Shown here piece after piece: positions 38,220 to 41,875 of a stretch of DNA of 42,050 nt; the first letter of the stretch is position 1, and every line of letters begins with the position of its first letter. The notes under the pieces are model-generated. The model was given only the letters and a program-made list of their open reading frames with translations. It ran no database searches and was not told the origin of the DNA. A program made the translations under genes and the position numbers. The stretch is from Thermoplasmata archaeon (GTDB taxonomy: Archaea > Thermoplasmatota > Thermoplasmata > Lutacidiplasmatales > UBA184): contig JAJZMW010000160.1 in assembly GCA_021848165.1 (NCBI GenBank), forward strand, positions 1 to 42,050, in the 5' to 3' direction.

Positions 38220-38273
38220 CCTCGTCCCTCGCTCGCAAAGGCTTTTCAGCCCGCTTTGGCGTCGGCCTTTCGT

Positions 38274-38381
38274 GGCCGGGATGGGGTAGCTTGGCCTATC
38301 CTGGGGGACTGTGGATCCCTCGACCCGGGTTCAAAGAGGCGCGGGGCCGACCCCCTCGCCCTGAGACTCTCGGTCCCGGCC
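38274..38381 (+). tRNA. tRNA-His (anticodon GTG) with encoded G-1 and a ~32-nt insertion (putative intron, ~38336-38367) in the T-loop
   Basis: Folded by hand. G-1 is at 38274. Acceptor GCCGGGA (38275-81) pairs with TCCCGGC (38374-80), and the discriminator is C. The anticodon stem GGGGA/TCCCT carries the loop CTGTGGA. The T-stem CCGGG (38325-29) pairs with CTCGG (38369-73). The T-loop TTCAAA|T is interrupted by GAGGCGCGGGGCCGACCCCCTCGCCCTGAGAC. No CCA is encoded. Confidence 0.7.
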
Positions 38382-39299
38382 CTACCGGCGGCGCTGCCGG
38401 GCGGGCGCCGCGCGTTGGGATCGCCCCGGCCGGGAGGGTTTCCGCACCCGCTTTTGAGCGGCCGATCGCCCGGGGCGCGTGGCGGGAGGGGTGCGTCGCT
38501 CCCACCGCACGAGAACCTCGGGAAGTTCCGCGAGGGAGTAATCCGCCCAGGCCGCTCCCCATTTGCGCAGGTCCTCCGGCGTCAAGGTCCACCCGAGGAA
38601 CGAACTGGCCCGTCCGAGGGCCGTCACCCCCGGGACGGCTTGGACCGCTTCCATGTCGAAGCGCGAATCGCCGACCAAGAACATGCGCGCGTTCGGATAC
38701 CGTCGGCGATACTCGATCAGGTGCTCCCGCTTGGTCCCGTCGCGGGAGCCGAGGACCGACTCGAACCAGAACCGGAGTCCCTCGCGCTCCAGCAAGAGCT
38801 CGGCCATCTCGGTCTCGGCGCCGGTCGAGACGACGAGGGTCCATCCCTCCGTGGAGAGCCGGTGGAGCATTTTCGGGACGTCCGGGAACGGTTCGGCGTG
38901 GGCGTACGCCTCGGTGACCTTGCGTTGATGAAAGATCCGCGCGGTCCCCTCCCGGAGCGCGCGGGGGGCCTCGGGGTAGAGCTGGGCGAGCTGCGCTTCG
39001 AACGGGAGGCCGGTCGTCGCAAGGTAGTGGACCCGCCCCTCGTCCGGCGCGGTCCCGAAGGCGCGATGCATCACGTCCCCGGCGACGTCGCTGATCCAGC
39101 GAAGGTCGTCCAGCAGCGTGCCATCGACGTCGAACACGACGACGCCCCGGGCGACCTCCTGCGGCTCCGGGGGAGGAGCGGTCGTCGTCGTGGGCGTGGA
39201 ACGGGAGGTCGAGAAGTACGGGCTCGCCGGCTCGCCGGCGATCGGGAGCTCCCCGTCCGACGGCTCGGTCGTCTCGGGTTGGCGTCGGCCGGAGTCCAT
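38382..39299 (-). CDS. HAD-superfamily hydrolase with a disordered N-terminus and a basic C-terminal tail
   Basis: Motif I VFDVDGTL, motif II VVSTG, and motif IV VGDSRFD. The N-terminal ~50 aa are Pro/Thr/Ser-rich. The stop codon abuts the 3' end of the tRNA-His gene on the other strand. Confidence 0.75.
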   Translation of the reverse strand: MDSGRRQPETTEPSDGELPIAGEPASPYFSTSRSTPTTTTAPPPEPQEVARGVVVFDVDGTLLDDLRWISDVAGDVMHRAFGTAPDEGRVHYLATTGLPFEAQLAQLYPEAPRALREGTARIFHQRKVTEAYAHAEPFPDVPKMLHRLSTEGWTLVVSTGAETEMAELLLEREGLRFWFESVLGSRDGTKREHLIEYRRRYPNARMFLVGDSRFDMEAVQAVPGVTALGRASSFLGWTLTPEDLRKWGAAWADYSLAELPEVLVRWERRTPPATRPGRSAAQKRVRKPSRPGRSQRAAPARQRRR

Positions 39300-39384
39300 C
39301 GCTCGGGCGTGGCGCCGCCCGCCATATGACGGTTCCCCCTTGGGTTATGAGGGGGGCCCGGTTCCCCCTCGCGAGCGCGCCGGT

Positions 39385-40692
39385 ATGCATCCGAGCCGAG
39401 TGATCCGAGGGCGGACGAGCCAGCTGCTGAGCGGCCGTCGGATCGTGGTGGGGATCGCGGGATCGATCGCGGCGGTCGAGGTCCCGCGCATCGTGCGGGA
39501 GCTCCTCCGGCACGGCGCCGAGGTCCGCGCGGTGATGAGCGGCGAAGCGCAGCGCATCCTCACGCCGGAAGCGATCCAGTTCGCGACCGGACAGCCGCCG
39601 ATCACGCACCTGACGGGCGACGTCGAGCACGTTTCGCTCCTGGGGCCGGGCGGCGGCCAGGCGGACCTGCTCTTGATCGCTCCGGCGACCGCGAACACGA
39701 TCGCCAAGATCGCGCACGGGATCGACGACACCCCCGTCACGAGCTTTGCGTCGATGGCCCTGGGCGGCGGGGTCCCGATCTTGCTGGCGCCCGCGATGCA
39801 TGCGCACATGCGGCAGAATCCCGCGATCCGCGACGCGCTCGCGACGCTCGAGCGGTGGGGGGTCGGGATCGTCGCGTCGCAGTCCGCCGAGGGAGAGGAG
39901 AAGCTCGCGAGCCCCGAGGAGATCGCGGCCGCCGTACTGCACGCGCTCGCGCGGAGCCCGTACCGGGGCCGCAGCGTGGTGGTGATCGGGGGGGCGGCCC
40001 GCGAGCCGGTCGACCGGGTCCGGGCGCTGTCGAACGAGAGCAGCGGCGCCACGGCCGTGGCGCTCGCCCAGCACGCGTACTTCCGGGGAGGGACGGTCGA
40101 GCTCTGGCTCGGCCATCACTCGGTCCCGGTGCCGAGCTATCTCCCCTCGCGCGGATGGAGAAGCGTGGACGACCTCCTTCGCCTCGCGGCGGACCAGCGC
40201 GGGCTCCTCGCCTCCGCGGCCTTGGTCATCGTCCCGGCGGCTCTGGCCGACTATACGGTCGTCGCCCGGCCGGGCAAGATCTCCTCGCGCGACCATCCCG
40301 CCCTGACGCTCCGGCTGCGCCGGGCCGAGAAGGTGCTCCCGCGGCTTCGGGAGTTCGCGCCCCCCCCGGTCCGCTTGGTCGGGTTCAAACTCGAGGCGGA
40401 GACGACGCCCGAGGCGCTCGAAGCTTCCGCGCGGCGCCTCGCGGGCGAGGCCGGCCTCGACTGGGTCGTCGCCGACGACGCCGCCACGATGGGAAGCCCG
40501 GAGATCCACGCGCTGGTCCTCCCCCCCCGCGGCGGTCGCCATTGGCTGCACGGCTCGAAGTTCGACGTCGCCGGCAAGTTGCTCGACGACATCGGGCTCG
40601 ACATCGCCCAGCAGCGCACCCCGCGCCCCGGCGCCTCGGGGCCGGCCCCCCGCCGTCGGACGGCGGCGACCCGTCCCCGCCGTCGCCGTTAA
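39385..40692 (+). CDS. coaBC: bifunctional phosphopantothenoylcysteine decarboxylase / phosphopantothenate--cysteine ligase
   Basis: N-terminal flavoprotein domain (IVVGIAGSIAAVE, APATANTIAK.A.GI.D) and a C-terminal DFP ligase domain (SNESSG....LA; AALADY). Confidence 0.85.
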   Translation: MHPSRVIRGRTSQLLSGRRIVVGIAGSIAAVEVPRIVRELLRHGAEVRAVMSGEAQRILTPEAIQFATGQPPITHLTGDVEHVSLLGPGGGQADLLLIAPATANTIAKIAHGIDDTPVTSFASMALGGGVPILLAPAMHAHMRQNPAIRDALATLERWGVGIVASQSAEGEEKLASPEEIAAAVLHALARSPYRGRSVVVIGGAAREPVDRVRALSNESSGATAVALAQHAYFRGGTVELWLGHHSVPVPSYLPSRGWRSVDDLLRLAADQRGLLASAALVIVPAALADYTVVARPGKISSRDHPALTLRLRRAEKVLPRLREFAPPPVRLVGFKLEAETTPEALEASARRLAGEAGLDWVVADDAATMGSPEIHALVLPPRGGRHWLHGSKFDVAGKLLDDIGLDIAQQRTPRPGASGPAPRRRTAATRPRRRR

Positions 40693-40723
40693 GTGACGGC
40701 ACGGTTCGCTCCCGTCGAGTTCC

Positions 40724-41875
40724 ATGGTCAAGCTGGCGGAGTGGCGGGGCAAGGAGATCTTCCGAACGTACGGCGTGCCCCTCCCGACGGGGCGCGTCGC
40801 GAGATCGGCCGAGGAAGCGGCCCGGATCGTCGCCGCCCAGGAGGTTCCCCTCCCGTGCGTGATCAAGGCGCAGGTCCTTGCCGGGGGCCGAGGGAAGGGC
40901 GGGGCGGTCCGCTTCGCGTCCACGGTCGATGAGGCGCGGGCGGCGGCGCAGGCGATCCTCGCGCTCGAGTTCAAGGGGGAGAAGGTCCGCGAGGTCCTCC
41001 TCGAGAGCAAGCTCGCGATCGGGCGGGAGCTCTACGTCTCGATCACGCTGGATCGCGCGGGCCGCATCCCGATCCTGTTGACGAGCGCGCAGGGCGGTGT
41101 CGAGATCGAGTCGGTCCCGGACGACGCCATCGTCCGGCAGCCGATCCATCCGTTCGTCGGCCTGACGGGATACGAGAAGCGGCGGGCCGCGGGGTCGCTC
41201 GGCGTCACCGGCGCGGTGGCCCGATCGCTCGGCGGGCTCTTGGACTCGTTGTGGAAGGCGTTCAACGAGGAGGACGCCGAACTGGTCGAGATCAATCCCC
41301 TCGCCGTGGTCGGCGACGGCGTGGTCGCCCTCGACGCGAAGGTGATCATCGAGGACGACGCCGCGTTCCGTCACCCCGAGTTCGCCGAGGTGCGCGACGA
41401 TCGCACGCCGCTCGAAGAGATCGCCCGGGAGAAGGAGATCGCGTTCGTCCAGCTGGACGGGAACATCGGCGTCATCGCGAACGGCGCCGGTTTGACGATG
41501 GCGACCTTGGACGTGTTGCAGCAGTTCGGGGGACGGCCCGGGGTCTTCCTCGACCTGGGCGGGACCGACGACCCGGCGAAGGTGACCGAGGCGTTCCTCT
41601 TGATGGCCCAAGCGCGGCCCAAGGCGGTCTTCCTGAACATCTTCGGGGGCGTCACGCGCTGCGATACGGTCGCGAAAGGTCTGGTCGAGGCGCTCGGGAA
41701 GGTCCCCACCTCGGAGCGATTCCCCTTGGTGGCCCGGATCCGCGGGAACAACGAGGCGGAGGGGATCGCGATCCTCCGATCGGCGGGCGTCGTCTCCAAC
41801 CCGGACCTCAAGGCGTCGGCGGAGGCCGTCGTGGCCGCGGCCGGTGGGCCCTCGCCCCCCGGGGGTGCCGCATGA
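40724..41875 (+). CDS. sucC: succinate--CoA ligase (ADP-forming) beta subunit
   Basis: [41 protein letters not shown] and NIFGG..RCD. Confidence 0.9.

What the first reader, a model, noticed from the sequence alone, without database searches (positions are those of the whole stretch)
38274..38381. tRNA-His gene interrupted by a ~32-nt insertion in the T-loop (non-canonical intron position)
Hand folding gives a complete tRNA-His. It has an encoded G-1 opposite discriminator C, a 7-bp acceptor stem, the anticodon loop CTGTGGA (anticodon GTG) and the T-stem CCGGG/CTCGG. The cloverleaf closes only if 38336-38367 (GAGGCGCGGGGCCGACCCCCTCGCCCTGAGAC) is removed from the T-loop, restoring TTCAAAT (position 59/60; a 60/61 placement is also possible). 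The insert can itself form a GGCG-C-GGGG/CCCC-CT-CGCC hairpin. From established knowledge, archaeal tRNA introns are mostly at 37/38. Introns elsewhere, including the T-arm, are known chiefly from Thermoproteales and a few other lineages, and they require a bulge-helix-bulge motif for the splicing endonuclease. In a genome that otherwise looks euryarchaeal/Thermoplasmatota-like, this would be unusual. If this is the only tRNA-His copy, splicing is essential.
Basis: partly seen in the sequence, partly recalled or inferred. Interest (0 to 1): 0.6.

Follow-up and report, generated by a model that had tools for sequence, protein, structure and literature searches.

The report
T-loop intron in histidine tRNA gene
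This is a real, single-copy histidine tRNA gene of an uncultured acid-soil/mine-drainage archaeon (class Thermoplasmata) whose T-loop is interrupted by a 32-base protein-spliced intron; the kind of intron is known, but it is conserved here in over a hundred species, and in about a third of their tRNA genes, in a lineage whose splicing enzyme is the type said to handle only standard introns.

Summary
Observation confirmed, interpretation supported.

- **The gene.** Window 38274-38381 (+) is a tRNA-His(GTG) gene with an encoded G-1. A 32-nt intron (38336-38367) sits between tRNA positions 59 and 60.
- **Detection.** ARAGORN and Rfam miss the gene as it stands. With the 32 nt removed, ARAGORN calls a 76-nt tRNA-His.
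- **Splicing motif.** The junctions form a bulge-helix-bulge motif. The T-stem is the outer helix. T-loop U54-A57 pairs with the intron's UGAG to form the 4-bp central helix. The two 3-nt bulges are AA|G and AC|U. The intron hairpin is the inner helix.
- **Conservation.** In 30 congeneric species the exons barely change (only three D-loop columns vary), while the intron varies with compensatory changes.
- **Distribution.** At least 116 GTDB species, nearly all soil Thermoplasmata MAGs and probably Lutacidiplasmatales, carry this intron. Sister families have no intron or a 37/38 intron.
- **Copy number.** It is the only tRNA-His found in this genome.
- **Other tRNAs.** About 12 tRNA genes of this genome, and 12-13 in a 100%-complete congener, have a 27-38-nt intron at 59/60.
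- **Splicing enzyme.** The congeners' EndA is the alpha'2 type without the specificity loop.
- **Limits.** Splicing itself is not shown. This scan has noted the same phenomenon before on other genomes.

The parts
38237..38247 (+). Promoter-like box AAAGGCTTTTC (BRE/TATA-like); its TTTT (38243-38246) ends 28 nt upstream of G-1
   Evidence: An AAA(g/c)cTTTTc-type element lies at the same distance upstream in all 30 congeneric loci, while the rest of the flank is not conserved. That it acts as a promoter is inferred.
38274..38335 (+). 5' exon: G-1 (38274), acceptor 5' strand 38275-38281, D-arm, anticodon arm (anticodon GTG 38311-38313), T-stem 5' strand 38325-38329, and T-loop nt 54-59 TTCAAA (38330-38335)
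   Evidence: Invariant in 30 species except for three D-loop columns.
38330..38333 (+). Exon side of the central 4-bp BHB helix (U54 U55 C56 A57)
   Evidence: It pairs with 38362-38365. The pairing is kept in 94% of cells across 30 species, through G/A changes opposite the U residues.
38334..38336 (+). 5' bulge A58 A59 | G, with the cleavage site after 38335
   Evidence: The geometry was derived from the canonical 37/38 case and checked on the 37/38 intron of this genome's tRNA-Leu(TAA). This is inference from the known BHB architecture.
38336..38367 (+). 32-nt BHB intron at tRNA position 59/60
   Evidence: The length is 28-33 nt in the 116 species.
38338..38360 (+). Inner helix h' of the intron: a hairpin GGCG-C-GGGG / CCCC-U-CGCC with a CCGAC loop. 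In this genome it is offset by one A.C mismatch (38337/38361).
   Evidence: Six of 10 pairs show compensatory changes in the genus. In several relatives (e.g. L015) it is a perfect 10-bp helix that abuts the central helix.
38362..38365 (+). Intron side of the central helix (UGAG)
   Evidence: Four of 4 pairs form in 71 of the 119 pattern matches and 3 of 4 in 44; 116 of the 119 are tRNA-His genes.
38366..38368 (+). 3' bulge A C | U60, with the cleavage site after 38367
   Evidence: Symmetric to the 5' bulge. U60 is the same in all copies, whereas the two intron bases vary (AC, AG, AA, AT, CC, GT).
38368..38381 (+). 3' exon: U60, T-stem 3' strand 38369-38373, acceptor 3' strand 38374-38380, discriminator C73 (38381). 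CCA is not encoded.
   Evidence: Invariant in 30 species.

Best explanation
Window 38274-38381 is the functional, probably only, tRNA-His(GUG) gene of an uncultured Thermoplasmata archaeon, probably of the order Lutacidiplasmatales/UBA184. It is transcribed from its own promoter as a precursor that carries a 32-nt intron between positions 59 and 60.

In the precursor, T-loop nucleotides U54-A57 pair with the intron's 3' segment UGAG. Together with the T-stem (outer helix) and the intron hairpin (inner helix), this makes an hBHBh'-type bulge-helix-bulge motif with 3-nt bulges AA|G and AC|U.

The archaeal splicing endonuclease EndA, here an alpha'2 homodimer type, cuts in both bulges. RtcB joins the exons, which restores the T-loop UUCAAAU. 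RNase P leaves the encoded G-1, and CCA is added afterwards.

What is shown: the gene, the motif, its conservation and covariation, and the presence of RtcB in this genome and EndA in congeners. What is inferred: transcription, cleavage and ligation.
For: - Removing 38336-38367 yields a textbook 76-nt tRNA-His(gtg).
- The BHB geometry fits exactly at 59/60.
- In an alignment of 30 congeneric species, all exon columns are invariant except three in the D-loop, while the intron varies. Overall, 96.6% of cells are paired, against at most 68.6% when the partners are slid. Six of 10 inner-helix pairs have changes on both sides. The central helix is kept through U-A/U.G switches.
- At least 116 species genomes carry the same gene with a 28-33-nt intron at the same site. 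In a sample of 400 genomes of the class it is present in 57/59 of the window's family, in 7/7 and 6/6 of two other families, and is absent from most others.
- A promoter-like box is conserved at a fixed distance upstream in 30/30 loci.
- No other tRNA-His was found in the assembly.
- RtcB is present in this genome.
- A two-repeat EndA is present in 5/5 congeners searched.
- The same 59/60 architecture occurs in 11 other tRNA genes of this genome and in 12-13 tRNA genes of a 100%-complete congener.
Against: - There is no RNA evidence for the spliced product. The RNA-library contigs laid on the locus showed only unspliced loci of relatives and intron-less tRNA-His genes of other organisms.
- EndA was not found in this 79%-complete assembly.
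- In this particular genome the inner helix starts with an A.C mismatch, so the 5' bulge is slightly relaxed. The BHB conformer of the T-arm is 4 kcal/mol above the computed minimum-free-energy fold.
- Published biochemistry reports that wild-type A. fulgidus alpha'2 EndA hardly cleaves a strict BHB intron placed in the D-loop of a full-length pre-tRNA (PMC3241643). Efficient cleavage by a loop-less alpha'2 enzyme is therefore not a given.
Confidence: 0.92

Rival explanations
1. The insert is removed at a neighbouring position (60/61 or 58/59) rather than at 59/60.
For: From sequence alone, a cut one base to the right would also give a 76-nt tRNA with a 7-nt T-loop.
Against: The 3-4-3 BHB geometry places both cuts two bases 3' of the 4-bp helix, which is 59/60. 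The same rule reproduces 37/38 for the canonical intron of this genome's tRNA-Leu(TAA). With 59/60 the mature tRNA is invariant across species. With 60/61, position 60 would be G/C/A/T in different species while every other exon base outside the D-loop is fixed.
Confidence: 0.04
2. The 32 nt are not removed, and the mature tRNA keeps an extra hairpin in its T-loop.
For: No spliced RNA was seen.
Against: In the unspliced form, U54-A57 are locked in a helix, so the D-loop/T-loop elbow cannot form. The insert evolves freely apart from its BHB-defining pairs. The same design recurs in a dozen different tRNAs.
Confidence: 0.02
3. The locus is a decaying pseudogene or an assembly artefact.
For: Standard finders do not call it. 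One congener (G025, L050) has a degenerate copy with a broken anticodon stem and 3' exon.
Against: The exons are almost unchanged in 30 species and the arrangement is found in at least 116 independently assembled genomes. It has a conserved promoter-like box, and it is the only tRNA-His present.
Confidence: 0.02

Closest known systems
ARMAN-2 (Ca. Micrarchaeum acidiphilum) pre-tRNA-Cys(GCA) and pre-tRNA-Pro(GGG) introns at 59/60 (Fujishima et al. 2011, PMC3239211)
   Same: Protein-spliced archaeal tRNA introns at the same non-canonical T-loop position, 59/60. The Pro(GGG) introns form a strict hBHBh' motif. The habitat is also acid mine drainage.
   Different: ARMAN-2 uses a three-unit epsilon2 EndA with a specific loop and broad specificity. 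Its Cys intron is 13 nt long with a relaxed hBH motif. Here the enzyme is an alpha'2 type without that loop. The introns are 27-38 nt with near-strict BHB motifs, and almost all of them sit at the one position 59/60.
Non-canonical and multiple BHB introns of Thermoproteales and other Crenarchaeota/Thaumarchaeota (Sugahara 2008; reviews PMC4090602, PMC4033280; tRNAscan-SE 2.0 census PMC8450103)
   Same: BHB-flanked introns outside 37/38, with 59/60 among the listed positions. They affect a large share of tRNA genes.
   Different: [quoted passage not shown] Here I found no sequence similarity between the introns of different tRNAs.
Canonical 37/38 BHB introns of Euryarchaeota cleaved by alpha'2 EndA (A. 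fulgidus 1RLV/2GJW, T. acidophilum 2OHC, Ferroplasma enzyme PMC8707768)
   Same: The same enzyme architecture: the congeners' EndA aligns end to end with the A. fulgidus enzyme. The same 3-4-3 motif. The Ferroplasma (Thermoplasmatota) enzyme cuts minimal BHB substrates without a tRNA body.
   Different: The position is the T-loop rather than the anticodon loop. Reviews state that alpha4/alpha'2 lineages have only single introns at the canonical position (PMC4090602).

Membership tests
Archaeal protein-spliced (BHB) tRNA intron | Two 3-nt bulges separated by a 4-bp helix, flanked by helices (hBHBh'), with the cuts at symmetric places | tested here: met
   The outer helix is the T-stem (5 bp) and the central helix is UUCA/UGAG (4 bp). 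The bulges are AA|G and AC|U, and the inner helix is the intron hairpin, with one A.C mismatch at its base in this genome.
Archaeal protein-spliced (BHB) tRNA intron | Removal restores a canonical cloverleaf | tested here: met
   ARAGORN calls tRNA-His(gtg), 76 nt, with T-loop TTCAAAT, after removal of 38336-38367.
Archaeal protein-spliced (BHB) tRNA intron | Exons are conserved, while the intron is free to vary except for its structure | tested here: met
   Across 30 species the exon columns are invariant apart from the D-loop. Six of 10 inner-helix pairs show compensatory changes. The covariation score is 0.094, against 0.043 for shuffles and at most 0.031 for slid partners.
Archaeal protein-spliced (BHB) tRNA intron | The host encodes EndA and an RtcB-type ligase | tested here: inconclusive
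   RtcB is present in this genome. EndA was not found in this 79%-complete assembly but is present in 5/5 congeners searched.
Archaeal protein-spliced (BHB) tRNA intron | The spliced product is observed | tested here: inconclusive
   Contigs of four RNA libraries showed no joint across the intron. They represent relatives' unspliced loci or other organisms.
tRNA-His | Anticodon GUG, an extra G-1 paired with discriminator C73 | tested here: met
   G-1 is present in all 30 congeners.
Broad-specificity EndA systems (CSL of (alpha-beta)2, ASL of epsilon2) | An insertion with a conserved Lys at the beta3-beta4 turn of the catalytic unit (A. fulgidus E174-L178 site, PMC3241643) | tested here: not met
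   The congener EndA (L054:1474-2535, 354 aa) has two PF02778+PF01974 repeats in one chain. It reads YGSRVGDRL where A. fulgidus reads YGSEKGDLV, with the same length and no insertion.

The most novel reading that the evidence does not exclude
A whole lineage of soil and mine-drainage Thermoplasmata depends on a loop-less alpha'2 EndA to remove T-loop (59/60) introns from about a third of its tRNAs. These include single-copy essential ones (His, Asp, Asn). If so, the textbook co-evolution rule does not hold. That rule says non-canonical introns need (alpha-beta)2 or epsilon2 enzymes with a specific loop. Alternatively, this enzyme has found another way to reach a BHB motif in the tRNA elbow, for example because the intron itself keeps the T-loop from docking on the D-loop.
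Probability: 0.6. Interest if true: 0.6.

Novelty: new member of a known kind. Interest (0 to 1): 0.5.

Why it matters
Standard tRNA finders miss this gene, so the genome would look as if it lacked tRNA-His and a dozen other tRNAs. That affects MAG quality scoring and any inference about the genetic code. Biologically, reviews state that Euryarchaeota with alpha4/alpha'2 endonucleases have only canonical-position introns. Biochemistry also shows that the A. fulgidus alpha'2 enzyme hardly cuts a strict BHB intron outside the anticodon loop. A large, widespread soil lineage in which essential tRNAs need such cuts gives a direct test case for what really limits EndA substrate range. It also bears on why introns pile up at one position, 59/60.

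Tried and rejected
- **Finders on the unspliced locus.** ARAGORN and Rfam, at gathering threshold and at E<=10, found nothing. ARAGORN with -i on the whole genome gave many false giant-intron calls. It also misfolded three T-loop-interrupted genes (Gln, Glu, Arg-TCG) as uninterrupted.
- **Plain folding.** The minimum-free-energy fold of the 108 nt gives a cloverleaf with an extended T-arm but not the exact BHB, and its z-score is only -1.35. Thermodynamics alone is not informative here.
- **RNA evidence.** One run search and one read-laying gave no joint and no verdict on splicing. The contigs seen were relatives' intron-containing loci and foreign intron-less tRNA-His genes.
- **EndA in this assembly.** Not found, so congeners were used instead.
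- **Intron transposition.** Pairwise alignment of the 12 introns of this genome gave scores no better than shuffled sequences, so there is no evidence of recent spread.
- **Kinship of named MAGs.** The tool does not tell the kinship of genomes reached through loci. The order assignment rests on identical intron sequences between G036 (same genus) and MAG SubAcS10-22, and on GC content and habitat (PMC9287336).
- **Literature.** Searches for non-canonical introns in Thermoplasmata found no paper describing them.
- **False positives of my own scan.** These were discarded by eye: Ile on C40, Ser on C129, and alternative 3' ends of intact Phe, Cys, Thr and Arg-CCT genes.

Full report
**The observation.**
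It has G-1, a 7-bp acceptor stem, and a D-arm with A14, G18G19 and A21. The anticodon arm carries the loop CTGTGGA (anticodon GTG, 38311-38313), followed by a 4-nt variable region and the T-stem CCGGG/CTCGG. The T-loop is split as TTCAAA / 32 nt / T.
- ARAGORN finds no tRNA in the window. Rfam finds nothing at gathering threshold, nor at E<=10 on the locus alone.
- After removing 38336-38367 in silico, ARAGORN returns a regular 76-nt tRNA-His(gtg).

**The splice motif.**
- I derived the expected geometry from the canonical 37/38 case: outer helix, then a 4-bp helix made of four exon bases and four intron bases, with each cut two bases 3' of that helix inside a 3-nt bulge.
- Applied here, the outer helix is the T-stem. 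The central helix is U54 U55 C56 A57 (38330-38333) paired with UGAG (38362-38365). The bulges are A58 A59|G and A C|U60. The inner helix is the intron hairpin.
- In this genome the first inner pair is an A.C mismatch. In several relatives the inner helix is a perfect 10 bp that abuts the central helix.
- The same rule reproduces 37/38 for the canonical intron of this genome's tRNA-Leu(TAA).
- The BHB conformer of the T-arm costs 4 kcal/mol more than the computed optimum. This is usual for a protein-bound bulged motif.

**Comparative evidence.**
- A DNA search of 60 relatives found the full 108-nt arrangement in 30 of 36 species of the genus, at 85-97% identity.
- In the alignment of these 30 (A1), all exon columns are invariant except three in the D-loop. 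All other variation lies in the intron.
- Counting my structure on A1 gives 96.6% of cells paired, against at most 68.6% for slid partners. Six of 10 inner-helix pairs have changes on both sides. The central helix is kept by U-A/U.G exchanges. The covariation score is 0.094, against 0.043 for shuffles (0 of 500 reach it).
- T60 is the same in every copy while the first intron base is G, C, A or T. That settles 59/60 against 60/61.
- An AAA(g/c)cTTTTc-type box lies at a fixed distance upstream (38237-38247 here) in all 30 loci. It reads as an archaeal BRE/TATA-like promoter element; its function is inferred.

**Distribution.**
Of these, 116 are tRNA-His(GTG) genes with a 28-33-nt intron at this site.
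- Nearly all are labelled Thermoplasmata archaeon MAGs from soils. They include UBA184 and the AcS/SubAcS series.
- G036, which the tool places in the window's genus, has the same intron sequence as MAG SubAcS10-22. The Lutacidiplasmatales paper describes about 69% GC, about 2.1 Mb, and soil and acid mine drainage habitats (PMC9287336). This genome has 71% GC, and its DNA is held almost whole by two mine-drainage runs. The order assignment is therefore probable but not proven.
- In a 400-genome sample of the class, the pattern is present in 57/59 genomes of the window's family, in 7/7, 6/6, 2/11 and 1/2 of four other families, and in none of the rest.
- Direct reading of other families shows tRNA-His with no intron, or with a canonical 37/38 intron.

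**Is it the only tRNA-His?** ARAGORN with and without introns, the Rfam tRNA model, and BLAST with the gene itself find no other copy in this assembly. The assembly is 79% complete, so this is not proof. However, each congener also shows only one strong match.

**Enzymes.**
- RtcB is present in this genome (550 bits). EndA was not found in it, but it is present in all five congeners searched, as one reading frame with two catalytic domains.
- The 354-aa product has two PF02778+PF01974 repeats. It aligns end to end with the A. fulgidus alpha'2 enzyme (1R0V/2GJW, E = 5e-30).
- At the site where the Crenarchaea-specific loop was grafted into the A. fulgidus enzyme (E174-L178, PMC3241643), the congener enzyme has the same length as A. 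fulgidus, so there is no such loop.
- That paper also reports that wild-type A. fulgidus EndA hardly cleaved a strict BHB intron in the D-loop of a full pre-tRNA.
- Reviews state that alpha4/alpha'2 Euryarchaeota have only single canonical-position introns (PMC4090602; PMC4033280).
- On the other side, all EndA forms are reported to cut a canonical BHB without a tRNA body. The homodimeric Ferroplasma enzyme cuts minimal BHB substrates (PMC8707768).
- A plausible reconciliation, which is my inference: while the intron is in place, U54-A57 are held in the central helix, so the T-loop cannot dock on the D-loop and the motif stays accessible.

**Not a lone case.**
- I wrote a small scan that finds BHB candidates, splices them in silico and runs ARAGORN on the product.
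- Besides His, it found 27-38-nt introns at 59/60 in Asn(GTT), Gln(CTG), Gly(TCC), Glu(CTC), Ala(GGC), Arg(TCT), Arg(TCG), Ser(GCT), Ser(CGA), Leu(TAG) and Lys(TTT). Lys(TTT) also has a second insert in its D-loop.
- These genes explain the short, low-scoring Rfam tRNA hits.
- In a 100%-complete congener (G061), the 15 weak Rfam hits resolve into 12 tRNAs with a 59/60 intron, including Asp and Ser(GGA). The rest are one Trp with a canonical intron, one candidate with an intron near 37/38 whose identity ARAGORN leaves ambiguous, and one unresolved locus.
- Orthologous genes in the two genomes share near-identical exons and the intron position, but differ in intron sequence.
- Introns of different tRNAs are no more alike than shuffled sequences.

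**RNA evidence.** Four RNA libraries that hold a few words of the stretch were laid on it. Their contigs are intron-containing loci of relatives, with their own flanks, and intron-less tRNA-His genes of other organisms. No joint was seen, so splicing is neither shown nor contradicted.

**Verdict.** This is a genuine, conserved tRNA-His gene with a BHB intron at 59/60. The kind of element is known: position 59/60 is listed in reviews, and ARMAN-2 has 59/60 introns (PMC3239211). What I did not find described in the searchable literature is three things: this lineage, the pairing with a loop-less alpha'2 EndA, and the concentration of a dozen introns at one T-loop position. Earlier agents of this scan reached the same reading on other Thermoplasmata genomes. 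Those are unchecked notes, and I re-derived the points used here.

Noticed in passing
G000 contigs: C12:2214-2320(+), C15:9651-9766(+), C21:1217-1324(-), C21:1045-1158(-), C74:176-279(+), C81:4382-4483(+), C84:20631-20737(+), C138:2731-2836(+), C160:4261-4370(-), C164:7735-7856(+): Ten further tRNA genes of the same genome carry a 27-34-nt BHB intron at 59/60: Asn, Ser-GCT, Gln-CTG, Leu-TAG, Gly-TCC, Glu-CTC, Arg-TCT, Ala-GGC, Arg-TCG and Ser-CGA. ARAGORN misses them or misfolds them as uninterrupted. The 5' part of the Leu-TAG gene looks irregular and may hold a second insert.
   Followed up: partly
G000 C20:3961-~4104(-): tRNA-Lys(TTT) has a 38-nt intron at 59/60 and, by eye, a second insert of about 29 nt in the D-loop (GGGCCCGTAGCTCAGCCCGGTAG | insert | AGAGC...). 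That would make it a two-intron tRNA gene.
   Followed up: partly
L050 (G025:C30:19560-19870): A congener holds a degenerate copy of the intron-containing tRNA-His. Its anticodon loop reads CTGTGAT, and the anticodon stem, T-loop and 3' exon are broken. It is either a pseudogene derived from the interrupted gene or an error-rich assembly.
   Followed up: no
L039, L041, L042, L046, L048: In other families of the class, tRNA-His carries an intron at the canonical 37/38 position instead. The same tRNA therefore has no intron, a 37/38 intron or a 59/60 intron, depending on the family.
   Followed up: partly
window 38296-41010 (-): A 904-aa open frame on the minus strand overlaps the tRNA gene but has no Pfam match. 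It is most likely a spurious high-GC antisense frame. The real neighbour downstream is a CoaBC-like flavoprotein gene on the plus strand (39118-40692).
   Followed up: partly
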